A DNA stretch of 64,000 nucleotides from Nemertoderma westbladi. Its lineage: Eukaryota; Animalia; Xenacoelomorpha. A model generated the notes under the pieces. That model was not told the origin of the DNA, ran no database searches, and saw only the letters and a list, made by a program, of their open reading frames with translations. The stretch is taken from NCBI GenBank assembly GCA_032718475.1, contig JAUCBJ010003790.1:1-64000 (forward strand), in the 5' to 3' direction. The position numbers were made by a program, and so were the translations under genes. Of this stretch, positions 22,632 to 64,000 are shown one piece after another (the stretch's first letter is position 1; the number at the start of each line of letters is the position of its first letter).

Positions 22632-22849
22632 CAACGACGCATTTCTCTATTTAAGTCATTGAAAGTAAAATACCCACACAAAAATTTACATCTATAAAAA
22701 GGGTAACTACATTATATTTGTAAATAATAATTTAAATTTTATCATTTATTTTACAAAATCCTGTCCATTCAATACTATCAAACATCAGCTCAGCAATTTC
22801 TCGATGAGTTCCTTTATGTAAATTAAAGTTAATAATTATTATTGTTTCT

Positions 22850-41200: not shown

Positions 41201-42479
41201 GTTCTTTCTGTTCGCGTTCTTTCTGTTCGCGTTCTTTCTGTTCGCGTTCAAGTTGGAGTTCGCGTTCAAGTTGGAGTTCGCGTTCAAGTTGGAGTTCGCG
41301 TTCCTTCTGTTCGCGTTCCGCTTGCTCACGCTTACCTTTCTCTTCCAACTCCCGCAACTTTGCGTCTAACTTACGTGTTCGCTCCCTTTCCCGCTCGGCT
41401 TCCTTCCGTGCTTCCGATGCACGCAAAACTTCTGCCTGTTGTTCGTCCAGTCGGCGTCTTCTCTCCTCCGCCGAGTTGTGAGAAACAAGGGATCTAGCAC
41501 ATATAACCTTCCCTCGCGCGTGACTAACCTGGGAATCGCCGCTGTCTCTGGATGCATCGTCGGGTGGAGTCAACGTCCTCTGTTGGATGTTCTCCGTCGT
41601 CGGTAGCACCTGACCTGGTACCACCACTCCATTCTGCATCAGCCAGCTAGTAACTTCCCTTTAATACCTGCGCTCCTCCTTGTCTTGGATCTCTTCTCGC
41701 TCCACTAACTCTCTCAACTCTGCGTCACTCACTTGAGTCGCCTGCGCTTGTGATGTCCATAGCAGCCAGTTCTCCGTCCTAACTCGTCGGAATCGCTCCG
41801 ATAACTCGCGGTGCTCTCACAAGGCTGCTAAAACCCTGTCGTAAATCCTCGTCGCTACGTCGCTCGACTGAGACTCTACTGCCTTCTTTGCTAGGACTGC
41901 AAGCTCCTCCGTCTGCTTGAATAACGCTGAGTTATATCCTCTTCTAATCTCTACTAACTCTACCCTCCCGATGTTCGCTGAGTCAGCTAACATTTTCCTT
42001 ACCTTGTCCGCCGTCCGGGTTATATGTCCGGCATGCGCGCGAAGTTTCTTCTTCATCGCAGTGTCGAACTCTCTATCACTTACCTGACTTACGCTCGGTG
42101 GACTTGAAGGATTATTTCGGGAACTACGGGTACTCCTTACAGCCGTCGGGACCACGGCACTTACCATACCCACAGGTCTGGAAACCGGGCTCCGGGCTCT
42201 CGCTTCTGCTACACTACCTTCCCTATCACTCACCTCTGTCCGGGCTGCCGTACAGTCCTTCCTATCAGTAGCGGTAGGGGATCCTAATACTATTACCTGA
42301 GGTTGTTGTTCTTCCTCACTAGTCACTGTCTCGTCCTCCTGTTCACTTACGTCAGCGTCGCTCGCTGCGTCGTCATAGTCGGCATTGTCGTCAACAGTAA
42401 TATTGACGCTATCGTCAGTCGGCGGTCCAGCCGCCGTCTCGTAGCTGTCCTCTAGTGCCTCTTTGTCTGAGACACTCAT
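35214..42479 (-). pseudogene. BEL/Pao gag-protease-RT-RNase H-integrase N-terminus polyprotein, broken by two in-frame stops
   Basis: Gag Cys/His knuckles (CWACLAPGHVRRQC, CMECGRLHHKLLH), protease MLDTAS, RT YLPHH..KVRVVND / DIEAMFHQV / FYMDD, RNase H LHLFSDAS / RAELQAA / FYWTDA / NPADITSRG, and IN HxxxHH. ORFs 41817-42479 and 35205-41639 share a frame, separated by TGA (41817-41819) and TAA (41661-41663). Confidence 0.93.
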
Positions 42480-43572
42480 AGTCTAATAATGTTTGCCTTC
42501 CGGCAAAATATCTCGCAAAGTTCGAGATATGATTATAATTTAACCGAAATACGGTCAAATTATTTGTCTAATAATCAGTTGGTCCAAAATGTCAAAATAA
42601 ATTCGCAATGCAATATTGTGAATTTAATGGGGTATATAGTTATAGCAAATACTAACACAATATTTAAACAAAAATATTATTATATAGCTACTATATAGCA
42701 TTAAATACCGGTATAGCACAAAATAACTCTGAATCTAATACAAAATATTCAAAATATACTTGCCACCCGAATATTTCTAATTTTATATATAGCTCTAATC
42801 AACGTAATTTTAGTTTCAAATATTATATGTATCCACTAGCGCGTGGCTACATCTTCGGGTTGCGACTCTCTCTAACTCTCTCTCTAACTTGAGCGATTCA
42901 AAACCATGGCCGGCTAAACCTAAATATCCTAACTAATAAATTGAGTTCAGCTTCGCAGTTAAACAACCGATAATTTTTTACTGCTTCCACAAACACACTG
43001 GTGCCAACAGAACAACTAACCTTGTTTGCTGTGAGATTCCACGTCCGCGTCCAAAGATTCAGTCCCTTCGCTGATTGCAAACCGAACCCGCAGACCCACA
43101 CGAACCCCAAACTCAGAAGTTCCGTCTTGCCATGTATCTCCAGATGGTATAAAATAACTAAACGGTTACCTAACATACCGGTACAAAACTCTAGAATTTT
43201 ACAAAATAATTTTGACCGAAACTGAATTCTCGCAAACCTAGCTAAAATTTTCAAAAAAAACTTACTAATTACAATTTGCCCTAAGGCCTAAGGAACTGCT
43301 GTATTCGCAATTAGCAAAACGCACTACCGTACATCCACTGTATGCAGTACAGTAAGTAAAACAGTACACCAACCTAACAGCCTAATGATACTGTATGTGG
43401 TACGGCAAAACAAATGTCCCTTCTACCGTACGCAGTAACAACAATCAGCCTAATGTACTACTGTACTATTGTACGCAGCCAGTGAATACAGTAATCTAAA
43501 CTAACAGCCTAAAAGAATATACTCAATGTTCTACTGTACGCTACAGCCTACAGCAAATAAAACATACCTTAC

Positions 43573-45825
43573 TGTTAAACAACCGCGACACCTATACTAA
43601 CAGCAGAACTGTTGGACAGACAAATACCCGTATACCTCTCTGCCAACGTAATGAGCTCTCGCCTAACCAATAAGACACAAAGACTGCTCTACTGTTAAGT
43701 AAAGGGGATCAGGAGTGTGCTATTACTGTATTACTAAATTGTAAGGGTTGCTAAATACAAAACCGCTACTTACCGTTGGATGGCGCTAATCTGCCGTCCG
43801 CTAATATATTTTACTAAATTTACACAGCTCCTGCAAAATCGCTTGTTCCTTTCTCTACCGATCGCTCGATAGAGAGCTAACTGTTCGAATCTATGAGCCA
43901 CGCGGGAATAACCAAAACAATAAACCCGAGTCGGCTCCCTAAGCTTACTTAAGACGAGTGCGAGGGGCTTTGCACTCAGAGTATATTCTTACGCCTAATT
44001 TTACTACTGAAATACGCTAATGCCTACGTCTTTTCTAATCGCGAATACTGGGGGTTCCCTAACGGAATGTGTGAATGCGAGAATATTTAAAATAATCAAA
44101 ATGGTACAGTACAATGTCTTTCGTAGGTGATACCGCTCTGGGTCTAAACTTGCCTGCAGCTGGCTTTAGGCCAGCAACTCACTAGTGTCTTGCGTACTGA
44201 CTATTGCGATCTAGTTTATTACCCGCTAATGCAAATAACCGCTTAGCACTTAGCGTGAATAGTTTACAGTACTCTAATTATTACCTTAGCTACTCTCCGC
44301 TATGCTGCGTACTAATTCTTAATTTTTACTAATCAATTACAGTCACAAATATGTAACAGCGTACTAATTACTAAGAGTTCCAGAATGCGTAATTCTAATT
44401 TATTACGCAACAGGTTTCGCTAGTAATAGCCTAAATTGCCGTATTACTTTGACCTAAGCAGTAGTTAATTGTTGTAACTAAGAAATAGAAATCAATCAAA
44501 AGGGAATGGGGCGCCTACCTAAGCATTCGTAATCATAGGCACACTTCAGTAACACACCAATCAGCGTCAGCAATCACAGATCACAATAGTACAACTTGCA
44601 ATTATACAATCTGCAATTATATAATTCGCAACATAATAATTCGCAATTGACTAATTCGCAATCTACTTACTCGCAACTTACTTACTGTAAGGTATGCAGG
44701 CCCCTCCCGGGTACATCTAGGCTTCCTAACTAACCCAATTCCTGCCCCCTAATACTAAATAGAGACAAAACCTGGATCATCAGCCCCCTAATTACTGTAC
44801 CAGCGAGCGGTCTCCAACCTACAGTCCAAATCGCCCGACCGCAACGTTGACCCCCCCCAGCGTTGCCCGCTTTTGAATCCTCCGCTCTCCCTAGTCGCTC
44901 AACCCCCCGATGTGCCCACCGCCCACTGGCACCTTAGCCCTTCATTATGCTAATAGCTACCGTAGCGGCGCATGCAAATCACAAAGTCTGACAGTCTCAG
45001 AAATCCCTTAGGATTATTGCGCAGAAAGGAATCACATAGAACCATTAATCAAAAGTAGAAATCATAGTTCAGTTGTAATTAGCAGCAATCGAAAGAATTA
45101 ATTGAGAAACACAATCGAGAGTAATCGCACTAGCAAATCATTCCAAGAAATTAATCAAAATTAGCAAATTGCAGAAAATACGCTAAAATATCCGTCAAAA
45201 ATTGAATAAGGACAGCTCAGCAAGTACAAAGATGATAGCAGATCATGTGAGGTGTCATGTGAGGCTCTACCAGCACACCGCCAATTTATAGGTGATCCGG
45301 ATGGGGTGATGCAATAGGGTGACTCAATCGCTTTCTTATTGGCTCTCCAGTCCGTGCTAGCACTAGACCAACCTGGAAGCAGCTAGTCCAATAAGGAGGC
45401 CGGATTGTAGCCCTATTTGCTCCCCTTCCTCGAATTATTACCATATATGGTAATGGTTCACGTCTCTGGCTGCTGAATGGCCAGGACAGCGTCCCTATAT
45501 GCTAGCCCTACTAAAGCTAATATCAGCAAGCACGGAATCCAGGGTCCGAATAAACTTACCCTGGAACTATCTACATATAACCTAATACAAAATTACGTAG
45601 GTAGGGCTACATACTATACAAAATGGATGGATTCAAATATATGGGTGTTTCGATTTCCCTATCTAAATACCACTGCGTTATTATGCCTTATCTAAAATAT
45701 CATGCTGCACAACGGACTAATATTACATACTGCATAACGGACTAATATTGCATACTGCATAACGGACTAATATTGCATACTGCATGATGACTAATATTAT
45801 GGATACAGCGCCATATACCGTAACA
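43573..45825 (-). repeat. 5' LTR (2253 bp)
   Basis: Direct repeat of 27778-30012 plus an 18-bp extra segment near 44705. Confidence 0.96.
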
Positions 45826-47880
45826 TCTTATCTAATAATCGTTTCTTCTCTAATAATTGTTTATTCTCTAATAATTGTTTATTCTCTAATAATAATTGTT
45901 TCTTCTCTAATAATTGTTTCTTCTCTAATAATAATTGTTTCTTCTCTAATAATTGTTTATTCTCTAATAATAATTGTTTCTTCTCTAATAATTGTTTATT
46001 ATCTAATAATTGTTTCTTATCTAATAATTGTTTCTTATCTAATAATTGTTTCTTCTCTAATAATTGTTTCTTCTCTAATAATTATTTCTTATCTAATAAT
46101 CGTTTCTTCTCTAATAATTGTTTATTCTCTAATAATTGTTTATTCTCTAATAATAATTGTTTCTTCTCTAATAATTGTTTCTTCTCTAATAATAATTGTT
46201 TATTCTATAATAATAATTGTTTCTTCTCTAATAATTGTTTATTCTCTAATAATAATTGTTTCTTCTCTAATAATTGTTTATTATCTAATAATAATTGTTT
46301 CTTCTCTAATAATTGTTTATTCTCTAATAATAATTGTTTCTTCTCTAATAATTGTTTATTCTCTAATAATAATTGTTTCTTCTCTAATAATAATTGTTTC
46401 TTCTCTAATAATTGTTTATTCTCTAATAATAATTGTTTCTTCTCTAATAATTGTTTCTTCTCTAATAATAATTGTTTCTTCTCTAATAATTGTTTATTCT
46501 CTAATAATAATTGTTTCTTCTCTAATAATTGTTTATTCTCTAATAATTGTTTATTCTCTAATAATTGTTTATTCTCTAATAATAATTGTTTCTTCTCTAA
46601 TAATTGTTTATTCTCTAATAATAATTGTTTCTTCTCTAATAATAATTGTTTCTTCTCTAATAATTGTTTATTCTCTAATAATAATTGTTTCTTCTCTAAT
46701 AATTGTTTATTCTCTAATAATTGTTTCTTATCTAATAATTGTTTCTTCTCTAATAATTGTTTCTTCTCTAATAATTATTTCTTATCTAATAATCGTTTCT
46801 TCTCTAATAATTGTTTATTCTCTAATAATTGTTTATTCTCTAATAATAATTGTTTCTTCTCTAATAATTGTTTCTTCTCTAATAATTGTTTCTTCTCTAA
46901 TAATAATTGTTTATTCTCTAATAATAATTGTTTCTTCTCTAATAATTGTTTATTCTCTAATAATAATTGTTTCTTCTCTAATAATTGTTTATTATCTAAT
47001 AATAATTGTTTCTTCTCTAATAATTGTTTCTTATCTAATAATCGTTTCTTCTCTAATAATTGTTTATTCTCTAATAATTGTTTATTCTCTAATAATAATT
47101 GTTTCTTCTCTAATAATTGTTTATTCTCTAATAATAATTGTTTCTTCTCTAATAATAATTGTTTATTCTCTAATAATAATTGTTTATTCTCTAATAATAA
47201 TTGTTTATTCTCTAATAATAATTGTTTCTTCTCTAATAATTGTTTATTATCTAATAATAATTGTTTCTTCTCTAATAATTGTTTATTCTCTAATAATAAT
47301 TGTTTCTTCTCTAATAATTGTTTCTTATCTAATATTTGTTTCTTCTCTAATAATTGTTTCTTCTCTAATAATTGTTTCTTCTCTAATAATTGTTTCTTCT
47401 CTAATAATTGTTTATTCTCTAATATTTGTTTCTTCTCTAATAATTGTTTCTTCTCTAATAATAATTGTTTCTTCTCTAATAATTATTTCTTATCTAATAA
47501 TCGTTTCTTCTCTAATAATTGTTTATTCTCTAATAATTGTTTATTCTCTAATAATAATTGTTTTTTCTCTAATAATTGTTTATTCTCTAATAATAATTGT
47601 TTATTCTCTAATAATAATTGTTTCTTCTCTAATAATTGTTTATTCTCTAATAATAATTGTTTCTTCTCTAATAATTGTTTATTCTCTAATAATTGTTTAT
47701 TCTCTAATAATAATTGTTTCTTCTCTAATAATTGTTTCTTCTCTAATAATTGTTTATTCTCTAATAATAATTGTTTCTTCTCTAATAATTGTTTCTTCTC
47801 TAATAATTGTTTCTTCTCTAATAATAATTGTTTCTTCTCTAATATTTGTTTATTCTCTAATTATTATTGTTTCTTCTATT
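45826..47880 (+). repeat. 18/21-bp AT-rich minisatellite, right part
   Basis: Same unit as 22850-27777, continuing in register after the TSD. Confidence 0.97.
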
Positions 47881-48296: not shown

Positions 48297-50478
48297 GGCA
48301 TTGTGCCTGGCACTGGTTGTAGAACTGATCACCCAACCCAGTACCGGTCCACGGCATAGTGCCTGGCACAGGTTGTACAAAGGTTAACCCAGTACCGGTC
48401 CACGGCATAGTGCCTGGCACAGGTTGTACTGAGGTTAACCCTTGTACAACCGGTGCCACGGCACTATGCCGTGGACCGGTACTGGGTTAACCTTTGTACA
48501 ACCAGTGCCAGGCACTATGCCGTGGACCGGTACTGGGTGTAACAGTTCTACAACCTGTGCCAGGCACTACGCCGTGGACCGGTACTGGGTGATCAGTTGT
48601 ACAACCTGTGCCAGGCACTATGCCGTGGACCGGTACTGGGTGATCAGTTCTACAACCAGTGCCAGGCACTATGCCGTGGACCGGTACTGGGTTAACCTTT
48701 GTACAACCTGTGCCAGGAACTATGCCGTGGACCGGTACTGGGTTGGGTGATCAGTTCTACAACCAGTGCCAGGCACTATGCCGTGGACCGGTACTGGGTT
48801 AACCTTTGTACAACCTGTGCCAGGCACTATGCCGTGGACCGGTACTGGGTTAACCTTTGTACAACCTGTGCCAGGAACTATGCCGTGGACCGGTACTGGG
48901 TTGGGTGATCAGTTCTACAACCAGTGCCAGGCACTATGCCGTGGACCGGTACTGGGTTAACCTTTGTACAACCTGTGCCAGGCACTATGCCGTGGACCGG
49001 TACTGGGTTAACCTTTGTACAACCTGTGCCAGGCACTATGCCGTGGACCGGTACTGGGTTGGGTGATCAGTTCTACAACCAGTGCCAGGCACTATGCCGT
49101 GGACCGGTACTGGGTTAACCTTTGTACAACCTGTGCCAGGCACTATGCCGTGGACCGGTACTGGGTTAACCTTTGTACAACCTGTGCCAGGCACTATGCC
49201 GTGGACCGGTACTGGGTTAACCTTTGTACAACCTGTGCCAGGCACTATGCCGTGGACCGGTACTGGGTTAACCTTTGTACAACCTGTGCCAGGCACTATG
49301 CCGCGGACCGGTACTGGGTGATCAGTTCTACAACCAGTGCCAGGCACTATGCCGTGGACCGGTACTGGGTTAACCTTTGTACAACCTGTGCCAGGCACTA
49401 TGCCGTGGACCGGTACTGGGTTAACCTTTGTACAACCTGTGCCAGGCACTATGCCGTGGACCGGTACTGGGTTAACCTTTGTACAACCTGTGCCAGGCAC
49501 TATGCCGTGGACCGGTACTGGGTTAACCTTTGTACAACCTGTGCCAGGCACTATGCCGTGGACCGGTACTGGGTTAACCTTTGTACAACCTGTGCCAGGC
49601 ACTATGCCGTGGACCGGTACTGGGTTAACCTTTGCTACAACCAGTGCCAGGCACTATGCCGTGGACCGGTACTGGGTTAACCTTTGTACAACCTGTGCCA
49701 GGCACTATGCCGTGGACCGGTACTGGGTTAACCTTTGTACAACCAGTGCCAGGCACTATGCCGTGGACCGGTACTGGGTTAACCTTTGTACAACCTGTGC
49801 CAGGCACTATGCCGTGGACCGGTACTGGGTGATCAGTTCTACAACCAGTACCAGGCACTATGCCGTGGACCGGTACTGGGTTAACCTTTGTACAACCTGT
49901 GCCAGGAACTATGCCGTGGACCGGTGTTGGGTTAACCTTTGTACAACCTGTGCCAGGCAATATGCCGTGGACCGGTACTGGGTTAACCTTTGTACAACCT
50001 GTGCCAGGCACTATGCCGTGGACCGGTACTGGGTGATCAGTTCTACAACCAGTGCCAGGCACTATGCCGTGGACCGGTACTGGGTGATCAGTTCTACAAC
50101 CTGTGCCAGGCACTATGCCGTGGACCGGTACTGGGTTAACCTTTGTACAACCAGTGCCAGGCACTATGCCGTGGACCGGTACTGGGTTAACCTTTGTACA
50201 ACCAGTGCCAGGCACTATGCCGTGGACCGGTACTGGGTTAACCTTTGTACAACCTGTGCCAGGCACTATGCCGTGGACCGGTACTGGGTGATCAGTTCTA
50301 CAACCAGTGCCAGGCACTATGCCGTGGACCGGTACTGGGTTAACCTTTGTACAACCAGTGCCAGGCACTATGCCGTGGACCGGTACTGGGTTAACCTTTG
50401 TACAACCTGTGTCAGGCACTAGGCCGTGGACCGGTACTGGGTTAACCTTTGTACAACCTGTGCCAGGCACTAGGCCGT
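48297..50478. repeat. 51-bp tandem array with an inverted left arm (foldback-like)
   Basis: About 40 copies of GCCAGGCACTATGCCGTGGACCGGTACTGGGTTAACCTTTGTACAACCTGT at 48442-50478, and about 2.7 reverse-complement copies at 48297-48441. Confidence 0.95.
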
Positions 50479-50777: not shown

Positions 50778-50909
50778 TTAAGCTAAATAGACGTAAACTT
50801 TACGATCAGATGAACTTCGGGCCAAGTATTCGCGCTCTATAAGAGATTCAATTCGTTTTTTTATGTTTTGTGGACTTGGTGGGAACCGAGTTCGAAGTTG
50901 TTCAACAAC
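50778..50909 (-). CDS. CUL3: Cullin-3, last coding exon
   Basis: ttctcacag|[43 protein letters not shown], the cullin WH-B C-terminus; 132 bp, phase 0. Confidence 0.93.
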
Positions 50910-51051
50910 CTGTGAGAAATAATAAAAATTACAAAATAATTGGATGTACAGGACATTCGGTAGGGCTATCAGCTATTTATTACTACCGATCTATACGGAA
51001 CGGACAATAAAGCGAGATGTAGTCACTTAGTCTGTTACTATGGTAACCAAC

Positions 51052-51263
51052 CTCTGATATTAACTGGTTGTTATTCAACTCCCTTCGACTCTTCATGATA
51101 CGAACTATAGCCGCTTCTATCTCGTGTTTGCGGTCCTCGTCAACTTTCGCTTTGGTTTCCTTACGTTCCGGTTCAGACTCTCCTTTAGCTGCTAAGCCGA
51201 CGACCTTCACTCGCATCAGTTTAGATGTGTATGAGTCATTAACAGAGAACAAGTGATCTTTAG
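51052..51263 (-). CDS. CUL3: Cullin-3 exon with the neddylation-site motif
   Basis: tttacag|(A)[70 protein letters not shown]|gttggt. IVRIMKSR motif present; phase 1 start matches the previous exon. The acceptor actually used is inferred. Confidence 0.9.
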
Positions 51264-54200
51264 CTGTAAATATAGATGTGTGTGAGTCATTAACAGAGAA
51301 CAAGTGATCTTTAGCTGTAAATATAGATGTGTATGAGTTATTAACAGAGAACAAGTGATCTTTAGCTGTAAATATAGATGTGTGTGAGTTATTAACAGAG
51401 AACTAGTGATCTTTAGCTGTAAATATAGATGTGTGTGAGTTATTAACAGAGAACAAGTGATCTTTAGCTGTAAATATAGATGTATGTGAGTCATTAACAG
51501 AGAACAAGTGATCTTTAGCTGTAAATATAGATGTGTGTGAGTCATTAACAGAGAACAAGTGATCTTTAGCTGTAAATATAGATGTGTGTGAGTTATTAAC
51601 AGAGAACAAGTGATCTTTAGCTGTAAATATAGATGTGTGTGAGTCATTAACAGAGAACAAGTGATCTTTAGCTGTAAATATAGATGTGTGTGAGTCATTA
51701 ACAGAGAACAAGTGATCTTTAGCTGTAAATATAGATGTGTGTGAGTCATTAACAGAGAACAAGTGATCTTTAGCTGTAAATATACATGTGTGTGAGTCAT
51801 TAACAGAGAACAAGTGATCTTTAGCTGTAAATATAGATGTGTGTGAGTCATTAACAGAGAACAAGTGATCTTTAGCTGTAAATATAGATGTGTGTGAGTC
51901 ATTAACAGAGAACAAGTGATCTTTAGCTGTAAATATAGATGTGTGTGAGTTATTAACAGAGAACAAGTGATCTTTAGCTGTAAATATAGATGTGTGTGAG
52001 TCATTAACAGAGAACAAGTGATCTTTAGCTGTAAATATAGATGTGTGTGAGTTATTAACAGAGAACAAGTGATCTTTAGCTGTAAATATAGATGTGTGTG
52101 AGTCATTAACAGAGAACAAGTGATCTTTAGCTGTAAATATAGATGTGTGTGAGTCATTAACAGAGAACAAGTGATCTTTAGCTGTAAATATAGATGTGTG
52201 TGAGTTATTAACAGAGAACAAGTGATCTTTAGCTGTAAATATAGATGTGTGTGAGTTATTAACAGAGAACAAGTGATCTTTAGCTGTAAATATAGATGTG
52301 TGTGAGTCATTAACAGAGAACAAGTGATCTTTAGCTGTAAATATAGATGTGTGTGAGTCATTAACAGAGAACAAGTGATCTTTAGCTGTAAATATAGATG
52401 TGTGTGAGTCATTAACAGAGAACAAGTGATCTTTAGCTGTAAATATAGATGTGTGTGAGTTATTAACAGAGAACAAGTGATCTTTAGCTGTAAATATAGA
52501 TGTGTGTGAGTTATTAACAGAGAACAAGTGATCTTTAGCTGTAAATATAGATGTGTGTGAGTCATTAACAGAGAACAAGTGATCTTTAGCTGTAAATATA
52601 GATGTGTGTGAGTCATTAACAGAGAACAAGTGATCTTTAGCTGTAAATATAGATGTGTGTGAGTTATTAACAGAGAACAAGTGATCTTTAGCTGTAAATA
52701 TAGATGTGTGTGAGTCATTAACAGAGAACAAGTGATCTTTAGCTGTAAATATAGATGTGTGTGAGTCATTAACAGAGAACAAGTGATCTTTAGCTGTAAA
52801 TATAGATGTGTGTGAGTCATTAACAGAGAACAAGTGATCTTTAGCTGTAAATATAGATGTGTGTGAGTCATTAACAGAGAACAAGTGATCTTTAGCTGTA
52901 AATATAGATGTGTGTGAGTCATTAACAGAGAACAAGTGATCTTTAGCTGTAAATATAGATGTGTGTGAGTCATTAACAGAGAACAAGTGATCTTTAGCTG
53001 TAAATATAGATGTGTGTGAGTCATTAACAGAGAACAAGTGATCTTTAGCTGTAAATATAGATGTGTGTGAGTCATTAACAGAGAACAAGTGATCTTTAGC
53101 TGTAAATATAGATGTGTGTGAGTCATTAACAGAGAACAAGTGATCTTTAGCTGTAAATATAGATGTGTGTATGAGTCATTAACAGAGAACAAGTGATCTT
53201 TAGCTGTAAATATAGATGTGTGTGAGTCATTAACAGAGAACAAGTGATCTTTAGCTGTAAATATAGATGTGTGTGAGTCATTAACAGAGAACAAGTGATC
53301 TTTAGCTGTAAATATAGATGTGTGTATGAGTCATTAACAGAGAACAATTGATCTTTAGCTGTAAATAAAGATGTGTGTGAGTCATTAACAGAGAACAAGT
53401 GATCTTTAGCTGTAAATATAGATGTGTATGAGTCATTAAGAGAGAACAAGTGATCTTTAGCTGTAAATATAGATGTGTGTGAGTCATTAACAGAGAACAA
53501 GTGATCTTTAGCTGTAAATATAGATGTATGTGAGTCATTAACAGAGAACAAGTGATCTTTAGCTGTAAATATAGATGTGTGTGAGTCATTAACAGAGAAC
53601 AAGTGATCTTTAGCTGTAAATATAGATGTGTGTGAGTCATTAACAGAGAACAAGTGATCATTAGCTGTAAATATAGATGTGTGTGAGTCATTAACAGAGA
53701 ACAAGTGATCATTAGCTGTAAATATAGATGTGTGTGAGTCATTAACAGAGAACAAGTGATCTTTAGCTGTAAATATAGATGTGTGTGAGTCATTAACAGA
53801 GAACAAGTGATCTTTAGCTGTAAATATAGATGTGTGTGAGTCATTAACAGAGAACAAGTGATCTTTAGCTGTAAATATAGATGTGTGTATGAGTCATTAA
53901 CAGAGAACAATTGATCTTTAGCTGTAAATATAGATGTGTGTGAGTCATTAACAGAGAACAAGTGATCTTTAGCTGTAAATATAGATGTGTATGAGTCATT
54001 AAGAGAGAACAAGTGATCTTTAGCTGTAAATATAGATGTGTGTGAGTCATTAACAGAGAACAAGTGATCTTTAGCTGTAAATATAGATGTATGTGAGTCA
54101 TTAACAGAGAACAAGTGATCTTTAGCTGTAAATATAGATGTGTGTGAGTCATTAACAGAGAACAAGTGATCTTTAGCTGTAAATATAGATGTGTGTGAGT

Positions 54201-54395
54201 CATTAACAGAGAACAAGTGATCTTTAGCTGTAAATATAGATGTGTGTGAGTCATTAACAGAGAACAAGTGATCTTTAGCTGTAAATATACATGTGTGTGA
54301 GTCATTAACAGAGAACAAGTGATCTTTAGCTGTAAATATAGATGTGTGTGAGTCATTAACAGAGAACAAGTGATCTTTAGCTGTAAATATAAATG
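51224..54395 (-). repeat. 51-bp array = CUL3 3' splice site + exon start, about 62 copies
   Basis: - strand unit acatctatatttacag|CTAAAGATCACTTGTTCTCTGTTAATGACTCACAC. Confidence 0.95.
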
Positions 54396-54937
54396 TTAGT
54401 TTATGTTTGTTTGTTTGATACTTGGTACATCTGCGAGCTAAGCTGTACCAAGGCATCTGGCGTCTCTGTTTTAGACGATCGCCCTCACTCCTCACACAAT
54501 TTTACCTCTCGGACTTTGTTGTCCCTTCCTCTCTCGCCAGTCCCTTAGGACTCATCCTCCTCTCCGCTAGCTCCCCACACTCGGACCTCGCACCCTTTAC
54601 TTTTCTCCCTTAGCTCTAGCACCTTCTCCCCACGCTCCCCTGATACTCAACCCCTCGACTCATGCTCTCTAAGTTCTTTTGGTTGGGTTCCCACGGTCTC
54701 ATACAAGTATACGTTGTATATAATAAGTGAGTCCCTCGTCTTATCCTCCTGTTCCAGTCAATTAGGTCCCAGTCCCAGTAGCTAATTGGAAAAGGTTACA
54801 TCTGACTATAGTACGTATTTTATATATTATATATTCGTCCACACGACGTGTCTTAACCCCCCGCCCCTTTCGGAAGCGATATGACTCGCCTCTCCCCGTC
54901 TCACCCCCCACTTGAGTGAATCCGCAAGTCGCGCAGC

Positions 54938-55420
54938 CTATTCCTCTCGGAACTTGTTCCACTCCATCGCCTTGTGGTACGTGAGTCCCATCGACTGACC
55001 CATCGCCACGGCTCCGTATTGTCCCGTGTTATCCACCAATCCTAATCCATCAGGTTTCGTCATAGCCATGTAGACTACCTGCATGTCCAGAAGATTCGTA
55101 GTGTCAGGTCCAATAATCCTCTCTGCGTCGCCGCGTATCGCCGTTCCAATATCGATCGTAGTCTTTGACCTTACCAGCTTCTGCATCGCATCCGGTAGGC
55201 GGTTCAACTTTGGCCCGGTCTTCTTACCCTAGGTCGCTAGGTCAAACAGAAAAATATCTCCATTCACTGCCACTAAATGCACCAATATAGTCCTACTCGA
55301 CCCTCCTGACCCCTTTCTTGTCCCACCATCATCCTCTTCTGTCTCCACGTCATCCGGGACCCACGATATCCACGGAATCCGATAAACTCCTTCATAGTTT
55401 CTCCGCCATCACGATTCTCC
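54938..55420 (-). pseudogene. Decayed DEDDy (WRN/EXD-like) 3'-5' exonuclease-like sequence
   Basis: TILVHLVAVNGDIFLFDLAT*...LPDAMQKLVRSKTTIDIGTAIRGDAERI...NLLDMQVVY resembles the WRN-exo pattern LLQLA...YLFDL...LP..LK.LL.....KVG..I..D..KL...DL. In-frame stops are present. Confidence 0.5.
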
Positions 55421-55814
55421 TCTCTCACCAGACTGGTAGTGCCTTAGAAAGGCTCAGTAGGGCAAGAGATAACTAAGTATGGTCTTAATTTGTTTAAATC
55501 AGTGATGGCCTACCTCCTATCTGCGTTCTGTCAGTGTTTCGTGCCTCTATGTGCCAATTTACCCCTGATTCTTCAGTGCTGTGTTCACTCCCCAACCTCA
55601 ACTGACGTGCTATTACTCTATCTACTACTCAATTACCATGTAAGTAATTCATCACTACTTGTCTACAGAGAAGACTAGCTATAATTTCTTCCTCTTGTAG
55701 TAGCTTCCTACCAGATAACCTTCAGGCTCTGTAGCAATGTTCTAACTCCGCACTACGGGTTATACGCTACAGTAGTCTAGTTTGTCCGGCCTACACAGTC
55801 TATCCTACCACGCC

Positions 55815-57220
55815 TACATATCCCCCTCAACTCCTCACGTGGCGCCCTCAGTGCCCACAAGTTTACGGTACTATATATCCCTCTACTACGGTATGCATAC
55901 ATACCCCCCCCCCCCCCCTCAACTCCTCACGTGGCGCCCTCATTGCCCACAAGTTTACGGTACTATGTACCCCTCTACTACGGTATGCGTACATACCCAC
56001 CCTCAACTCCTCACGTGGCGCCCTCAGTGCCCACAAGTTTACGGTACTATGTATCCCTCTACTACGGTATGCGTACATACCCCCCCCCCCCCCCTCAACT
56101 CCTCACGTGGCGCCCTCAGTGCCCACAAGTTTACGGTACTATGTATCCCTCTACTACGGTATGCGTACATACCCCCCTCAACTCCTCACGTGGCGCCCTC
56201 AGTGCCCACAAGTTTACGGTACTATGTATCCCTCTACTACGGTATGCATACATACCCCCCCCCCTCAACTCCTCACGTGGCGCCCTCAGTGCCCACAAGT
56301 TTACGGTACTATGTACCCCTCTACTACGGTATGCGTACATACCCCCCTCAACTCCTCACGTGGCGCCCTCAGTGCCCACAAGTTTACGGTACTATGAACC
56401 CCTCTACTACGGTATGCATACATACCCCCCCCCCCCCTCAACTCCTCACGTGGCGCCCTCAGTGCCCACAAGTTTACGGTACTATGTATCCCTCTACTAC
56501 GGTATGCGTACATACCCCCCCTCAACTCACGTGGCGCCCTCAGTGCCCACAAGTTTACGGTACTATGTACCCTTCTACTACGGTATGCGTACATACCCCC
56601 CCTCAACTCCTCACGTGGCGCCCTCAGTGCCCACAAGTTTACGGTACTATGTATCCCTCTACTACGGTATGCGTACATACCCCCCCTCAACTCACGTGGC
56701 GCCCTCAGTGCCCACAAGTTTACGGTACTATGTATCCCTCTACTACGGTATGCGTACATACCCCCCCTCAACTCACGTGGCGCCCTCAGTGCCCACAAGT
56801 TTACGGTACTATGTACCCTTCTACTACGGTATGCGTACAATACCCCCCCTCAACTCCGCACGTGGCGCCCTCAGTGCCCACAAGTTTACGGTACTATGTA
56901 TCCCTCTACTACGGTATGCGTACATACCCCCCCTCAACTCACGTGGCGCCCTCAGTGCCCACAAGTTTACGGTACTATGTATCCCTCTACTACGGTATGC
57001 GTACATACCCCACCCCCCCACAGCTCCTCATGTGGCGCCCTCAGTGCCCACAAGTTTACGGTTCTATGTACCCCTATACTACGGTATGCGTACATATCCC
57101 CCCTCAACTCCTCACGTGGCGCCCTCAGTGCCCACAAGTTTACGGTACTATGTACCCCTCTACTACGGTATGCGTACATACCCCCCCTCAACTCCTCACG
57201 TGGCGCCCTCAGTGCCCACA
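55815..57220 (+). repeat. ~80-86-bp tandem array with a variable poly-C tract, about 17 copies
   Basis: Unit (C)nTCAACTCCTCACGTGGCGCCCTCAGTGCCCACAAGTTTACGGTACTATGTATCCCTCTACTACGGTATGCGTACATA. Confidence 0.95.
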
Positions 57221-57465
57221 GTAGTGCGTATGTAAATTAGGTACGCTGCTACATTTTTGTACCCGTCCAACGTACGTAATTGCAACTACCTACACCTATG
57301 TATTATGTACGTTGGTACGTCTGTACCCATCAGACGTACATAATGCCTACCTACAGCGTACCTTGGTACTAATGTTTTACTTATTTTATTTTTTTATTTT
57401 GTTTAGTATGTGGGAAGGGCGTCTCGCCCTCATTCCCACCCCCATCAGTCCAATATATTGGACGA

Positions 57466-58512
57466 CTTCATCGGCAGCGAGTTTTCTCTAAACTTACCGA
57501 TCTCTGTTCCCTTCATCGGCAGCGAAGTTTTCTCTAAACTTACCGATCTCTGTTCCCTTCATCGGCAGCGAGTTTTCTCTAAACTTACCGATCTCTGTTC
57601 CCTTCATCGGCAGCGAAGTTTTCTCTAAACTTACCGATCTCTGTTCCCTTCATCGGCAGTGAGTTTTCTCTAAACTTACCGATCTCTGTTCCCTTCATCG
57701 GCAGTGAGTTTTCTCTAAACTTACCGATCTCTGTTCCCTTCATCGGCAGTGAGTTTTCTCTAAACTTACCGATCTCTGTTCCCTTCATCGGCAGCGAGTT
57801 TTCTCTAAACTTACCGATCTCTGTTCCCTTCATCGGCAGTGAGTTTTCTCTAAACTTACCGATCTCTGTTCCCTTCATCGGCAGTGAGTTTTCTCTAAAC
57901 TTACCGATCTCTGTTCCCTTAATCGGCAGCGAGTTTTCTCTAAACTTACCGATCTCTGTTCCCTTCATCGGCAGCGAAGTTTTCTCTAAACTTACCGATC
58001 TCTGTTCCCTTCATCGGCAGCGAATTTTCTCTAAACTTACCGATCTCTGTTCCCTTCATCGGCAGCGAATTTTCTCTAAACTTACCGATCTCTGTTCCCT
58101 TCATCGGCAGCGAATTTTCTCTAAACTTACCGATCTCTGTTCCCTTCATCGGCAGTGAGTTTTCTCTAAACTTACCGATCTCTGTTCCCTTAATCGGCAG
58201 CGAGTTTTCTCTAAACTTACCGATCTCTGTCCCCTTCATCGGCAGTGAGTTTTCTCTAAACTTACCGATCTCTGTTCCCTTCATCGGCAGCGAATTTTCT
58301 CTAAACTTACCGATCTCTGTTCCCTTCATCGGCAGTGAGTTTTCTCTAAACTTACCGATCTCTGTCCCCTTCATCGGCAGTGAGTTTTCTCTAAACTTAC
58401 CGATCTCTGTCCCCTTCATCGGCAGTGAGTTTTCTCTAAACTTACCGATCTCTGTCCCCTTCATCGGCAGTGAGTTTTCTCTAAACTTACCGATCTCTGT
58501 CCCCTTCACCGG
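57466..58512 (-). repeat. 45-bp array = CUL3 exon end + 5' splice site, about 23 copies
   Basis: - strand unit ATGAAGGGAACAGAGATCG|gtaagtttagagaaaactcactgccg. Confidence 0.95.
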
Positions 58513-58707
58513 AAGTTTATTCAATATTTTTTGCTGCGGTTTCGCTAAACTCAAACTAAGAAGTGCCCGTTGTAAATCGTTTTCAGGGATGTCTGTTTCC
58601 TGTTGAATTTCCTCGAAGGTCCAACTTTCTCGTTTGTTAAACAACATTAGGATACACATTTGGTAGGTAGAAACCACCAGTATGTGATATTTAATTGTTC
58701 CATCGTC
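58491..58707 (-). CDS. CUL3: Cullin-3 exon
   Basis: tttag|[72 protein letters not shown]+G|gtaagt; 217 bp, ends in phase 1. Confidence 0.92.
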
Positions 58708-58770
58708 CTAAATATAAAAATAAATAAAATAAAATAAACAGGGGAAATTAAACTTACCTTAAACAGTGGC

Positions 58771-60648
58771 TGTTAATTTACAGGAGCTAATAAACCAACA
58801 GGTTGACGCCATCAATGATGCTGACGACAGCAGGCAATCATCCCAGGCATGGAAATCGATCAATCTGCTTACTGGGCGGAAAAGCCAACCAACCACCAAG
58901 GTTAAGGCTGAATCACCAGCCGATCGCCTCAATGGTTGGAAAGCCCACTTTGAAAAGCTCCTCAATAATGACAGGGTATTGCCTGATAACTTTATAGAAG
59001 TAAAAGTGTCTGAGTCTGTACTCCCAGATATTCCCATTGGCGATATCTCCTTTGCAGAAGTGAAGGCTGCTGCAAAGAGCATTAAGACCAATCGTGCCAG
59101 TGGAGTAGATGGTGTTCCCCCTGAGGTCTTTAAAATACCTGAGTGTTTAAAGCTCATCTATCCCATCATAGTAGACATGTACCGAACAACAAGAGTCCCA
59201 CAAGAAATGAAAACAAATAAGTTGGTGCCAGTTCCCAAGAAAGGCAACCTAACACTCTATGGTTCTTTTCGGGGAATCTCATTGATCTCGATTGCTGCAA
59301 AGCTATACAATAGAATTCTATTAAATCGCATCAGGGATCCCATTGAGAGACTGCTCCGTGGAAATCAGAATGGGTTCCGTAAAGGTCGTGGGACCATGGA
59401 GCCCATTTTGGCACTTAGAAGGATAATTGAAGAGTTATCAAAAAAGAAAGACAGGCATCTGGCTGTTATCTTTGTTGACTTCTTCAAGGCCTTTGATTCA
59501 GTCTCTCGCTCACGTATGTTCAGCATACTTTCATTATATGGGATTCCTGATGAAATTATTGCAGCAATCAGATCAGTATACGATGGTTCGACAACATTTG
59601 TGTCTACTGTTGACGGTGACACAGAACCATTTGAAGTGTTATGGGGCGTCCTCCAGGGAGACACACTTGCCCCAAATCCTGTTCATAATTGTTGTTGACT
59701 ATGTTCTACGCATGTCCTTAGATCATCATAATGATGATGGGGTGATGATAACTCCACCTACTGGCTCCAGAAGTCGAGGAAATCCTGCCAAGTACCTAAC
59801 TGATCTAGAATTTGCTGATGACTTAGAAGTACTCTCAGAATCACTAGAGGGAGCCCAAAGGCTCCTTAGCTCATTAGAACATGCTGCTTCTAGTGTTGGT
59901 CTTTTTATTAACTCCAGAAAGACCAAAATTATGACAGTTAACTTTGAAAGTCCTCAGCAAGTCTTTGATCGGATGAGCATAAGCTCAAAAGATGGTATGC
60001 TTGAGCATGTGGACGACTTCTGTTACCTGGGATCATGGATCCGGAAGTCAGGTGAGGACCTTCGAATACGTAAGGGAAAGGCATGGGCAGCCTTGAATAG
60101 GCTTTCCAGGATTTGGAAGTCACTGAGAATTAATCGGACACTTAAGGTCCGATTATTTAGAGCAGCAGTAGTTCCAGTACTCCTCTATGGGAGTCCATGC
60201 TGGGCTCTAACTGCTGAGGACACCAAATCTCTGGATGGCACATTCACAAGAATGCTACGCCGGGTTCATTGTGTCAAGTACAATGCACACATCTCCAACC
60301 AGACACTATATAACATTGGAGGTGTCCCATTGGTTCCCCCAAGCTTGACACTAGAACAAAATCGCCTCCGCTTTACAGGACATTGCTTTCGCCGTGAGGA
60401 CCAGCCAGTGCATAATCTTGTACTTTGGCAGCCTCATGGAGAGAATAAGCATGGTGGACAGCCCATGGCTTTCTTGAGACGCATCTTAAAGGACACTGGC
60501 CTTAAAGAAGCAGATGATCTAGCAAATGTCATGGGTGATAGGGAGTTGTGGCGGTGCAATTTTGTCGACAAGCCGGCACAGCATTCTTAAAAATGCAGCT
60601 GCAATGCAGCATGCCGATCCTAGTAGTAGTAGTAGTAGTAGTAGTAGT
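58771..60648 (+). mobile_element. 5'-truncated non-LTR retrotransposon (RTE-like RT), frameshifted
   Basis: RT motifs VPVPKKGNL..FRGISL, QNGFRKGR, FVDFFKAFDSV, GVLQGDTLAP, LEFADD, FCYLGS. Frameshift near 59672 and a (TAG)n 3' tail at 60621-60648. Antisense to CUL3. Confidence 0.92.
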
Positions 60649-60764
60649 AAACTTACAATAAACAGCGGTCCATTAAACTTACAATAAACAGCGGTCCATT
60701 ACACTTACAATAAACAGTGGTCCATTAAACTTACAATAAACAGAGGTCCATTAAACTTACAATA
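60649..60764 (-). repeat. 26-bp donor-derived repeat (further copies at 61050-61086 and 58748-58770)
   Basis: - strand unit ATGGACCGCTGTTTA(AG/TT)GTAAGTTT(A), matching the exon junction TTTAAG|GTAAGTTT at 61103. Confidence 0.75.
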
Positions 60765-61049
60765 ATGAAATTAGCACAAATATATTAGATTCGATAGATA
60801 TTAGGAAACGGCAAATTCATATTTATGTTTTATAAAAGTTTGCAACCGTAAATTAATATGCTAAGGTTTTATTATAAAAATTACGTAAGTAGGGCTACAT
60901 ACTGTATAAAATCGGTTGAATATAAATGAACTTGTATATTTTCTATTTACCCTATCTAATTATTACGGTTGCACATCAATACGCACTTATCTATCTTATT
61001 TTATACTGTATAACGGGATGTTTCAGACACAACGCCATATATCGCAACA
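60765..61049 (-). mobile_element. Truncated, diverged LTR fragment related to the BEL element's LTR
   Basis: AAAATTACGTAAGTAGGGCTACATACT...CCCTATCTAA...GACACAACGCCATATATCGCAACA aligns by eye with LTR 29776-30012 (...GATACAGCGCCATATACCGTAACA). Left boundary approximate. Confidence 0.75.
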
Positions 61050-61102
61050 CAGCGGTCCAATAAACTTACCTTAAACAGCGGTCCATCGGTCCGCAAACTT
61101 AC

Positions 61103-61312
61103 CTTAAAGAAGTAAGCTTTTAGGTCTGCATTACCCATGTGCTGTTGTAGAGTGAGCTGTCTACCGTTGTGTTTATTGAGATAGAAGACTTTGAACCTTG
61201 AGTATGCGTCCTGCGCCACCGATGGTAGGTTCCCGGAATTAGTAACTGTATGAGTTGGCCAGAAACCAGTGGTGAGCACCTTCACGTTCAAATCTAGCCC
61301 GTGCATGTTCGT
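61103..61312 (-). CDS. CUL3: Cullin-3 exon
   Basis: tttag|TNMHGLDLNVKVLTTGFWPT...FYLNKHNGRQLTLQQHMGNADLKAYFFK|gtaagt; 210 bp, phase 0/0. Confidence 0.93.
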
Positions 61313-61834
61313 CTAAAGCAATATTGTTAGTTAGGAGTGTAAAACAGGTTGTACTAATTAAAGATTAACCCCGTAAACATGTACATCTGGCAATGCGATA
61401 ATAAAAAGCTTTATGTTACAATATATAATGCAATAATGAAGTAATCTTATAGAATGGATTGGATTCATTGATATATTCGAGTTCGATTCAAGTAGAGTAA
61501 GAGGTGAAACCAATATCTGTGTATATCAATCATATAGTTATTCTGTTTTACTGATTTACCGGTCAGTTCATTAATCACAGAGTTGCAGACCGGTTATAGT
61601 TTTTGACCGTCGCCAACCAATATCTATTACTGATTTACTGCTGTTATTCTGCATTGCGATATCAATCACATACTAATTCTGTGCTATTATCATTTGGAAC
61701 ATTAACATCGAGAAACACAAACTCTGTTACTTTTCCCCAACGGCCTTCGGCCAAAAGGACACTAGCTCAGCAGCCCAGCAGAACGGTGACGCGTACTAAA
61801 CCTTACCCGGTCGGGATCTACGATCCCGTCACAT

Positions 61835-62265
61835 TAACCACATAGACTATATTGTTAATATTAACCACATTGACTATTATTAATATTAACCACATTGACT
61901 ATATTATTAATATTAACCACATTGACTATATTATTAATATTAACCACATTGACTATATTATTAATATTAACCACATTGACTATATTATTAATATTAACCA
62001 CATAGACTATATTGTTAATATTAACCACATTGACTATATTATTAATATTAACCACATTGACTATATTATTAATATTAACCACATTGACTATTATTAATAT
62101 TAACCACATTGACTATATTATTAATATTAACCACATAGACTATATTGTTAATATTAACCACATTGACTATATTATTAATATTAACCACATTGACTATATT
62201 ATTAATATTAACCACATTGACTATTATTAATATTAACCACATTGACTATATTATTAATATTTACC
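61835..62265 (+). repeat. 27/24-bp AT-rich intronic minisatellite, about 16 copies
   Basis: Unit ATATTAACCACATTGACTATATTATTA; begins 27 nt into the intron from the donor. Confidence 0.92.
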
Positions 62266-62291
62266 ACGTATTGTCTGCACTACACACTTAC

Positions 62292-62399
62292 ATTAGAAGT
62301 TGCGATGCTTTCTTTAAATTCTTCATTAGTTGAGGTAGAAACAGTCATATCTCGAAACATTCCTTCCAGTCTACTAGTGAACTGACAACCGCATTCAGT
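62292..62399 (-). CDS. CUL3: Cullin-3 exon
   Basis: tttag|TECGCQFTSRLEGMFRDMTVSTSTNEEFKESIATSN|gtaagt; 108 bp; TECGCQFTS is characteristic of CUL3. Confidence 0.93.
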
Positions 62400-62464
62400 C
62401 TAAATATTACAATTATTAATATTTACTAAAATTAAATATATGTAATATAGTTATAAACTATCCA

Positions 62465-64000
62465 ACCTTTAATTTAGTTACATATTTTTCTCACTAACCT
62501 TTAGTTTAGTTAACATATTATTTTTCTCACCAACCTTTAGTTTAGATACATATTTTTCTCACTAACATATTATTTTTCTCACTAACCTTTAGTTTAGTTA
62601 CATATTTTTCTCACTCACCTTTAGTTTAGTTACATATTTGTCACACTAACATTTAGTTTAGTTAACATATTATTTTTCTCACTAACCATTAGTTTAGTTA
62701 CATATTTTTCTCACTCCCCTTTAGTTTAGTTACATATTTTTCTCATTAACCTTTAGTTTAGTTAACATATTAATTTTCTCACTCACCTTTAGTTTAGTTA
62801 CATATTTTTCTCACTAACCTTTAGTTTAGTTACATATTTTTCTCACTCAGCTGTAGTTTAGTTACATATATTTCTCATTAACCTTTAGTTTAGTTAACAT
62901 ATTATTTTTCTCACTAACCATTAGTTTAGTTACATATTTTTCTCACTCACCTTGAGTTTAGTTACATATTTTTCTCACTAAAATTTAGTTTAGTTAACAT
63001 ATTATTTTTCTCACAACCTTTAGTTTAGTTACATATTTTTCTCACTCACCTTTAGTTTAGTTACATATTTTTCTCACTCAGCTGTAGTTTAGTTACATAT
63101 TTTTCTCATTAACCTTTAGTTTAGTTAACATATTATTTTTCTCACTAACCATTAGTTTAGTTACATATTTTTCTCACTCACCTTGAGTTTAGTTACATAT
63201 TTTTCTCACTAAAATTTAGTTTAGTTAACATATTATTTTTCTCACTCACCTTTAGTTTAGATACATATTTTTCTCACTCACCTTTAGTTTAGTTAACATG
63301 TTTTTCTCACTCACCTTTAGTTTAGTTACATATTTTTCTCACTCACCTTTAGTTTAGTTACATATTTTTCTCACCAACCTTTAGTTTAGTTACATATTTT
63401 TCTCACTCACCTTTAGTTTAGTTAACATGTTTTTCTCACTCACCTTTAGTTTAGTTACATATTTTTCTCACTCACCTTTAGTTTAGTTACATATTTTTCT
63501 CACTAACCTTTAGTTTAGTTAACATATTATTTTTCTCACTTACCTTTAGTTTAGTTACATATTTTTCTCACTCACCTTTAGTTTAGTTACATATTTTTCT
63601 CACTAACCTTTAGTTTAGTTAACATATTATTTTTCTCACGAACCTTTAATTTAGTTACATATTTTTCTCATTCACCTTTAGTTTAGTTAACATATTATTT
63701 TTCTCACTAACCATTAGTTTAGTTACATATTTTTCTCACTCACCTTTAGTTTGGTTAACATATTATTTTTCTCACGAACCTTTAATTTAGTTACATATTT
63801 TTCTCACTCACCTTTAGTTTAGTTAACATATTATTTTTCTCACTAACCATTAGTTTAGTTATATATTTTTCTCACTCCCCTTTAGTTTAGTTACATATTT
63901 TTCTCACTAACCTTTAGTTTAGTTAACATATTATTTTTCTCACTAACCTTTAGTTTAGTTACATATTTTTCTCACTAAAATTTAGTTTAGTTAACATATT
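62465..64000 (-). repeat. 32-36-bp array = upstream CUL3 exon end + 5' splice site, about 45 copies, running off the window
   Basis: The best-preserved - strand units read AGT GAG AAA AAC ATG TTA ACT AAA CTA AAG|gtgagt = SEKNMLTKLK + donor, the expected residues before TECGCQ. Confidence 0.88.

What the first reader, a model, noticed from the sequence alone, without database searches (positions are those of the whole stretch)
50778..64000. CUL3 introns are built from tandemly amplified exon-intron junctions (splice-site satellites)
Seen: four separate arrays in three introns of one gene each copy the adjacent splice junction. They are a 51-bp acceptor+exon start (~62x), a 45-bp exon end+donor (~23x), a 26-bp donor unit (~6-7x, TE-interrupted) and a 32-36-bp exon end+donor (~45x or more). 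The units are unrelated to each other, so each arose independently in place. Removing them leaves tiny canonical introns (last donor copy to acceptor: 50 nt at 58708-58757, 67 nt at 62400-62466). Inference: a recurrent, possibly genome-wide process duplicates junction-spanning segments and expands compact introns to kilobases. It is tolerated because one outermost splice site still gives the right mRNA, and TEs then land in the new space. I know of no named repeat class for this, though tandem duplication is an established intron-gain model.
Basis: partly seen in the sequence, partly recalled or inferred. Interest (0 to 1): 0.92.

Follow-up and report, generated by a model that had tools for sequence, protein, structure and literature searches.

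The report
Mirage minisatellites crowd a CUL3 gene
In an invertebrate's cullin-3 gene, four exon-intron borders are copied head-to-tail (7 to over 60 times) into the introns, and the assembled transcripts examined use the donor copies next to the exon and likely the acceptor next to the exon, so this is a dense example of a repeat type already named "mirage" in lancelets, not a new kind of element.

Summary
The 3' part of a minus-strand CUL3 gene carries four unrelated arrays copying its own splice junctions: 62 acceptors (51 bp), 23 donors (45 bp), 7 decoy donors (26-33 bp, split by a LINE), and at least 44 units (32-36 bp). Spliced contigs from two studies use the exon-adjacent donors and, by inference, the exon-adjacent acceptor. 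A second DNA sample holds extra copies of the 45-bp array.

The claim of no named class is wrong. These are "mirage" minisatellites (amphioxus; PMC3087553, PMC3902484), like the human F7 VNTR (PMC1557585). This scan has noted such arrays before on other DNA.

Half the window is tandem repeat, and the gene also holds two non-junction arrays. With ancestral introns of 50-240 nt, chance placement gives 4 of 5 junction-spanning at P = 0.01-0.16. A junction-targeting process is neither shown nor excluded; no genome was held for the test.

Two points remain of interest: the canonical branch-point motif lies 3.1 kb from the acceptor likely used, and the nearest decoy is in-frame and stop-free in 3 of 3 testable arrays (post hoc).

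The parts
50778..50909 (-). CUL3 last coding exon (f), ends in stop
   Evidence: Cullin_Nedd8 E 2.8e-13
50910..51051 (-). Intron E, 142 nt, GT-AG, no array
51052..51263 (-). CUL3 exon e; its first 42 nt are the exon part of the 51-bp unit
51222..54396 (-). 51-bp acceptor array (9 nt intron end + 42 nt exon start), 62 acceptors; the one at 51264 is likely used
   Evidence: use inferred from loose-end letters and contig length, checked
54395..54399 (-). Branch-point-like CTAAC of the original acceptor (AG at 54381), now 3.1 kb from the exon-adjacent acceptor
   Evidence: motif match only
54397..57465 (.). Middle of intron D: unidentified sequence holding an 84-bp non-junction array (55815-57220)
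   Evidence: the one ORF tested had no Pfam hit
57466..58512 (-). 45-bp donor array (exon d end + intron start), 23 donors; the first (58490) is used
   Evidence: RNA-like and DNA contigs
58491..58707 (-). CUL3 exon d
58708..58757 (-). 50-nt remnant of intron C: last decoy donor (AAG|GTAAGT) to acceptor
58770..60649 (+). 5'-truncated, frameshifted non-LTR (LINE) retrotransposon with a (TAG)n tail, inside the donor array of intron C
   Evidence: RVT_1 E 1e-15; very high depth and loose ends at 58770 in X2/X5; tail
60648..60765 (-). 26-bp donor-containing array, 4.5 copies (5 GT, ATT in place of the exon's AAG)
60766..61050 (.). 285-bp interspersed repeat in intron C, partly similar to two stretches beside the BEL/Pao element
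   Evidence: loose ends at 60764 and 61050; BLAST 77% over 86 nt
61050..61102 (-). True donor of exon c (61102) and first decoy donor (61069), 33 nt apart
61103..61312 (-). CUL3 exon c
   Evidence: X4 contig
61833..62267 (.). 27-bp array in intron B, 16 copies, starts 24 nt from the donor and does NOT span a junction
62292..62399 (-). CUL3 exon b
   Evidence: loose ends at 61312
62400..62466 (-). 67-nt remnant of intron A: last decoy donor to acceptor
62464..64000 (-). 32/33/36-bp donor array copying the end of the upstream exon (outside the window), at least 44 units

Best explanation
These are mirage-type minisatellites: tandem copies of CUL3's own exon-intron borders that likely arose by ordinary DNA slippage between short similar sequences on either side of a junction, in a genome that makes tandem arrays freely, and likely persist because splicing keeps using the site next to the exon. 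Steps: (1) a 26-51 bp segment is duplicated between microhomologies (inferred from the boundaries); (2) it expands by slippage or unequal exchange, with block duplications (pattern seen; mechanism inferred); (3) wholly exonic duplications would be purged while intronic and junction-spanning ones are tolerated, and in 50-240 nt introns a random segment often spans a junction (computed); (4) the spliceosome picks the first donor (seen in contigs) and the last acceptor (inferred), as expected from exon definition or 5'-to-3' donor scanning (established for F7; inferred here); (5) transposons then land in the new space (seen for intron C).
For: Boundary likeness one unit apart: 6/7 for the 51-bp array and 10/12 for the 45-bp array, against 0.0016 and 0.00007 for random exon x intron pairs. 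Repeated blocks of variants along the arrays, and exon-type alleles in 4 of the 6 copies nearest exon d and 0 of the other 16. 50.7% of the window is tandem array, mostly not junction-derived, and two arrays inside CUL3 do not span a junction. Placement model: expected 1.5-2.5 of 5 spanning; P(>=4) 0.075-0.16 if ancestral intron D was 80-150 nt. Spliced contigs in X3 (study P3) and X4 (study P2): exon b end joined at 61312; the X4 contig leaves exon c at 61102; both join exon d to exon e start sequence; neither covers 58456 in the first extra 45-bp copy; bin depths 728.4 and 73.7 equal the values computed if nothing lies beyond the first donors. Amphioxus mirages and F7 behave the same way.
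Against: The placement null fails at the 5% level if ancestral intron D was 300 nt or longer (P 0.03; 0.013 at 600 nt), and its length is unknown. CUL3 holds 5 of 9 arrays in about 16% of the reconstructed non-array sequence (P 0.007, rough, in a window selected for this). All 5 begin within 24 nt of a splice site. The 10/12 likeness at the 45-bp boundary may simply be a last partial copy cut by an insertion. Contigs drop rare variants, and NMD could hide use of decoys. The 30-letter loose end matches 2 places (true exon 51230 and one array copy at 53170), so acceptor choice rests on contig length (568 nt left = exon e + exon f + 224 nt of UTR). The 51-bp and 32-bp arrays were not examined in independent DNA.
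Confidence: 0.7

Rival explanations
1. A junction-directed or transcription-linked process (for example DNA breaks or R-loops at splice sites) preferentially seeds tandem duplications at exon-intron borders in this lineage, and is a main driver of intron growth.
For: 4 of 5 non-TE arrays in CUL3 span a junction and the fifth starts 24 nt from a donor; rough gene-body excess P 0.007, and placement P 0.013-0.03 if intron D was long; junction arrays fill 44% of the visible gene span. PMC3087553 calls the generating mechanism unclear.
Against: One gene, selected for the pattern. Tiny ancestral introns make spanning common by chance. Boundary microhomology fits generic slippage. An earlier scan note on another genome (e1-9992352, unchecked) reports no excess over chance.
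Confidence: 0.17
2. The arrays are functional: decoy sites are used at low level to make CUL3 isoforms with in-frame repeat inserts, or to tune output through NMD.
For: The nearest decoys are in-frame and stop-free: +11 aa (intron C), +15 aa each for donors 1-11, and +17/+34 aa for the two nearest acceptors. All 23 GT and 62 AG anchors are intact in intron D.
Against: No X3 or X4 contig covers the first extra 45-bp copy, and X4 shows none beyond the first donor of exon c. Intact sites are expected in young arrays (0.43 differences per 51-nt unit). 27 of 44 units of the intron A array are 32 nt, out of frame.
Confidence: 0.06
3. The arrays, or their great length, are assembly artefacts.
For: Copy numbers were not confirmed by long reads; the 51-bp and 32-bp arrays were not examined outside this assembly.
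Against: DNA contigs of a second sample (X2, X5) cover 58456 inside the first extra 45-bp copy, X2 with both alleles seen in the window's array; X2 depth is 149 in that bin against 31.8 single-copy; its single-copy contig breaks at 58479 and carries the LINE junction with 0 differences. Copies carry diagnostic variants in ordered blocks.
Confidence: 0.05

Closest known systems
Amphioxus 'mirage' minisatellites (Adh3, globins BflGb6 and BflGb9, troponin C, PGBD5). Ebner et al. 2010, PMC3087553 (passages seen); PMC3902484 (passages seen); Canestro et al. 2002, PMC117041 (not held; known only through those two papers)
   Same: [quoted passage not shown]
   Different: Higher copy numbers than the globin (3-6) and PGBD5 (2-7) cases; four arrays in 13 kb, with a donor and an acceptor array in one intron; a TE inside an array; another animal lineage (best protein identities 75% for CUL3 exon e over 96% of the query and 51% for PIP4P over 86%). 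Length polymorphism was not tested here.
Human F7 intron 7 37-bp VNTR. Borensztajn et al. 2006, PMC1557585 (abstract and Discussion seen)
   Same: The first unit spans the exon/intron boundary; identical donor pseudo-sites follow; only the most upstream is used, even where downstream sites would keep the frame.
   Different: Donor side only, 5-9 copies, 37 bp (not a multiple of 3); mechanism tested with mutants there, untested here.
Internal tandem repeats at exon-intron boundaries of human duplicated genes. De Grassi and Ciccarelli 2009, PMC2812944 (passages seen)
   Same: Variable tandem repeats at exon-intron boundaries that reshape gene structure.
   Different: There they often create new introns or alternative transcripts in recent paralogs. 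Here the arrays enlarge existing introns of a conserved gene; no new intron was seen.

Membership tests
Mirage minisatellites | Head-to-tail tandem repeat with a minisatellite-size unit | tested here: met
   Units of 26-51 bp, 4.5 to 62 copies
Mirage minisatellites | Unit spans an exon-intron boundary of the host gene | tested here: met
   51-bp: 42 exon + 9 intron nt; 45-bp: 18 exact exon nt (up to 25 with mismatches) + intron start. 26-bp: only 6 exon nt, and in 2 of 7 copies. 32-36-bp: inferred from translation, since the exon is outside the window
Mirage minisatellites | Many copies keep GT or AG splice signals | tested here: met
   62 acceptor and 23 donor anchors; 31 of 44 AAG|GT in the intron A array
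Mirage minisatellites | Regular splicing is not disturbed (donor side) | tested here: met
   Spliced contigs of two studies use the first donor of exon d, and X4 the first donor of exon c; contig level only; intron A not examined
Mirage minisatellites | Regular splicing is not disturbed (acceptor side) | tested here: inconclusive
Mirage minisatellites | Length instability between haplotypes or cells | not testable with these tools
   Only short-read contigs were offered; they collapse arrays
Mirage minisatellites | Locally born, not a dispersed satellite family | tested here: inconclusive
   No hit elsewhere in the 64-kb window; the genome is not held
Intron gain by tandem genomic duplication (Rogers model, as described in PMC3087553) | The duplication creates a new intron position | tested here: not met
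   Each array adjoins an intron that keeps its own older acceptor or donor remnant; exons align to homologues in order with no extra exon. That the positions are ancestral in animals is recalled, not tested

The most novel reading that the evidence does not exclude
In this lineage mirage arrays are not scattered curiosities but a main route by which 50-70 nt introns grew to kilobases. They are seeded preferentially at splice junctions and filtered for founding units that keep the frame (33, 45, 51 and probably 33 nt here), and an array can replace an intron's branch point with exon-derived sequence. The genome would then be a natural, genome-wide experiment on a switch from intron definition to exon definition.
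Probability: 0.15. Interest if true: 0.68.

Novelty: new member of a known kind. Interest (0 to 1): 0.3.

Why it matters
As it stands, this is a dense, clean example of a described but little-studied repeat class. It also offers two natural tests of splice-site choice. A perfect-consensus donor 50 nt from the acceptor is passed over, at contig level, for an identical donor 2.4 kb away. And the acceptor likely used lacks its original branch-point motif, while 61 near-identical copies, one with that motif, lie upstream. If a whole-genome test showed real junction enrichment or a bias to frame-keeping units, it would turn the open question of how mirages arise (called unclear in PMC3087553) into a measurable one, and add a route to intron expansion besides transposons. 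Such arrays also mislead gene prediction and read mapping.

Tried and rejected
Whole-genome test: no G000 is held. Run search: no RNA holder listed; two runs labelled 'DNA?' (X3, X4) turned out to hold spliced contigs, so their RNA nature is my inference. Close relatives for an orthologous-intron comparison: none found (best 75% over 96% of CUL3 exon e among the 120 listed of 1238 hits; best 51% over 86% of PIP4P among 48 hits), so the lineage was not identified beyond 'animal'. The exon c-d joint was not printed in the cut joint table (422 rows hidden); it is read from contig coordinates. Introns lacked cover in X3/X4 apart from repeats; taken as weak only. The middle of intron D as a transposon: no Pfam hit for the one ORF tested, no terminal repeats, no match in the window; left unidentified. 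A clean target-site duplication for the LINE or the 285-bp repeat could not be told from array copies. Selection against decoy GT/AG: not seen in intron D. Frame-keeping: (1/3)^4 = 0.012 at face value, but the pattern is post hoc, depends on choosing founding units for two arrays, 4 of 7 non-junction unit lengths in the window (18, 27, 51, 84 of 18, 25, 27, 51, 53, 84, 88) are also multiples of 3, and the F7 (37) and BflGb9 (157) units are not; kept as a lead only. Seven literature searches listed no genome-wide study of mirage enrichment; the library lacks most subscription journals. PMC12783039 (passages) describes intronic minisatellites in earthworm genes, with no junction-spanning unit in the passages seen. 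Earlier scan notes for this genome or sequence: none; none on frame-keeping.
Full report
Gene. The minus strand of 50778-62399 holds five CUL3 exons (b to f) bounded by GT-AG. Each was tested separately: 5 of 5 pass the Pfam cut-off for Cullin or Cullin_Nedd8 and align in order to three named cullin-3 proteins at 51-74% identity. The next exon upstream is outside the window. The host is an animal with no close relative in the protein collection (best 75% over 96% of exon e; best 51% over 86% of a neighbouring PIP4P gene). No genome is held.

Arrays. The 51-bp array has 62 acceptor anchors; its unit is the last 9 intron bases plus the first 42 of exon e. The 45-bp array has 23 donors; its unit is the end of exon d plus the intron start. 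Intron C has 7 decoy GT copies, split by a 5'-truncated LINE (RVT_1) and a 285-bp interspersed repeat. Only 2 of the 7 keep the exon's AAG; the other five resemble the original intron start (80% over 41 nt to the 50-nt remnant). The intron A array has at least 44 units; its 33-nt units translate to EKNMLTKLK, which matches the residues upstream of exon b in 3 of 3 homologues, so it very likely copies the unseen exon's end. The units share no 12-mer, and the 51-, 45- and 32-bp units have no match elsewhere in the window. The 50-nt and 67-nt remnants are correct.

Tandem arrays cover 32,445 of 64,000 bases. CUL3 itself has a 27-bp array in intron B that starts 24 nt inside the intron and an 84-bp array in the middle of intron D; neither spans a junction. 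Intron E (142 nt) has no array.

Are they real? Contigs from four runs were laid on 58400-61830. X2 and X5 (one sample, not the possible source X1) cover position 58456, inside the first extra 45-bp copy; X2 shows both alleles found in the window's array, has depth 149 in that bin against 31.8 single-copy, and its single-copy contig breaks at 58479. The same contig carries the LINE's 5' junction with no difference. This supports multiple copies of the 45-bp unit in a second sample, not the copy number. The 51-bp and 32-bp arrays were not examined in other data. Ordered blocks of shared variants argue that they are biological.

Splicing. X3 (study P3) and X4 (study P2) are labelled 'DNA?' but hold spliced contigs, so I infer they are RNA. 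In both, the loose end at 61312 is the end of exon b, and the loose end at exon d's 3' end is exon e start sequence. A 2311-nt X4 contig leaves exon c at 61102, the first donor. Neither run covers 58456. The bin depths 728.4 (X3, exon d donor) and 73.7 (X4, exon c donor) equal what is computed if nothing lies beyond the first donors. The acceptor is less direct. The 30 loose letters match the true exon and one array copy at 53170. The X3 contig has 568 nt left after exon d, which fits exon e + exon f + 224 nt of UTR, and a short-read contig would not be expected to run unbroken through repeated 51-mers (my knowledge of de Bruijn assembly). Contigs hide rare isoforms, and NMD could hide others.

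Mechanism. The array ends show likeness one unit apart: 6/7 between the native intron and exon e, and 10/12 between exon d and the intron start, against 0.0016 and 0.00007 for random pairs; the second may instead be a truncated last copy. In intron A the copies read V-S where homologues read D-S, which would put a similar 6-mer in the exon and at the donor; that exon is unseen, so this is inference. This fits ordinary microhomology slippage followed by minisatellite turnover. The exon-type allele sits in 4 of the 6 copies nearest exon d and in none of the other 16. In small introns such segments often span a junction: the expected number is 1.5-2.5 of 5, and P(>=4 of 5) is 0.16, 0.125, 0.075, 0.03 and 0.013 for an ancestral intron D of 80, 100, 150, 300 and 600 nt. 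Against the null, CUL3 has 5 of 9 arrays in about 16% of reconstructed non-array sequence (P 0.007). That figure is rough: two intron lengths are assumed, at least two intergenic arrays (18 and 53 bp) have relatives elsewhere in the window, arrays inside TE-like or unidentified inserts (25 and 84 bp) and very short ones were left out of the count, and the window was chosen for the pattern. A junction-directed process is therefore neither shown nor excluded.

Two details worth keeping. First, the CTAAC branch-point motif belongs to the farthest acceptor (54381). The exon-adjacent acceptor has only exon-derived TTAAT (-27) and CTCAC (-20), so the array has likely swapped the intron's branch point. 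In intron C a donor identical to the true one lies 50 nt from the acceptor and is not the one used in the X4 contig. Both point to exon-anchored choice in a gene whose introns were once short. Second, the exon-nearest decoy is in-frame and stop-free in 3 of 3 arrays whose exon is visible (33, 45, 51 nt). This is post hoc and weak: 27 of 44 intron A units are 32 nt, 4 of 7 non-junction unit lengths are also multiples of 3, and the F7 study found in-frame pseudo-sites unused too.

What is known. Ebner et al. [quoted passage not shown] PMC3902484 (passages) adds troponin C and PGBD5. PMC1557585 (abstract and Discussion) shows with mutants that only the most upstream of identical donors is used in human F7. 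PMC2812944 (passages) covers boundary repeats in human paralogs. The original Adh3 paper is not held, and no supplements were read; they may give mirage copy numbers as high as those here. Earlier notes of this scan report the same pattern in other genomes (annelid, sea urchin, shark-like and unnamed invertebrate), including 56-copy donor arrays and multi-gene cases (unchecked AI notes, which also pointed me to these papers). Seven searches listed no genome-wide enrichment study.

Verdict. Real and well described, but a new member of a known kind. The untested part, whether junctions are hit more often than chance, is what could raise it. Interest 0.30.

Noticed in passing
window 733-1413 (-) and 21873-22631 (+): Two genes with uninterrupted reading frames: a p24/TMED protein (EMP24_GP25L) and a PIP4P/TMEM55. 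Both usually have introns in animals (recalled), which suggests intron loss or retrocopies in this lineage.
   Followed up: partly
window about 27777-45825: A large BEL/Pao LTR retrotransposon region (Peptidase_A17, DUF1759, DUF5641) with long direct repeats (each holding the same 15- and 25-bp arrays), flanked on both sides by the same 18-bp satellite (22841-27776 and 45826-47877), so it likely inserted into that satellite.
   Followed up: partly
window 7422-20099: 12.7-kb array of an 88-bp unit (144 copies) with no match elsewhere in the window; origin not examined.
   Followed up: no
window 48297-50478: 51-bp array (40 copies) preceded by about two copies in inverted orientation at 48297-48441, ending about 75 nt past the implied CUL3 3' UTR end; unrelated to the 51-bp acceptor unit.
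   Followed up: no
window 4392-7072 and 21098-21164: The 53-bp array has a diverged single relative 14 kb away (78-82% identity), so it may be a dispersed or TE-borne satellite.
   Followed up: partly
window 58770-60649: The LINE family is very abundant (summed contig depth above a million in X2 and X5) and rises toward its 3' end in the spliced runs X3 and X4, as transcribed copies would.
   Followed up: no
window 61242: A G/C difference in exon c between the window and X2, X3 and X4 (X5 matches the window), so this CUL3 allele is polymorphic.
   Followed up: no
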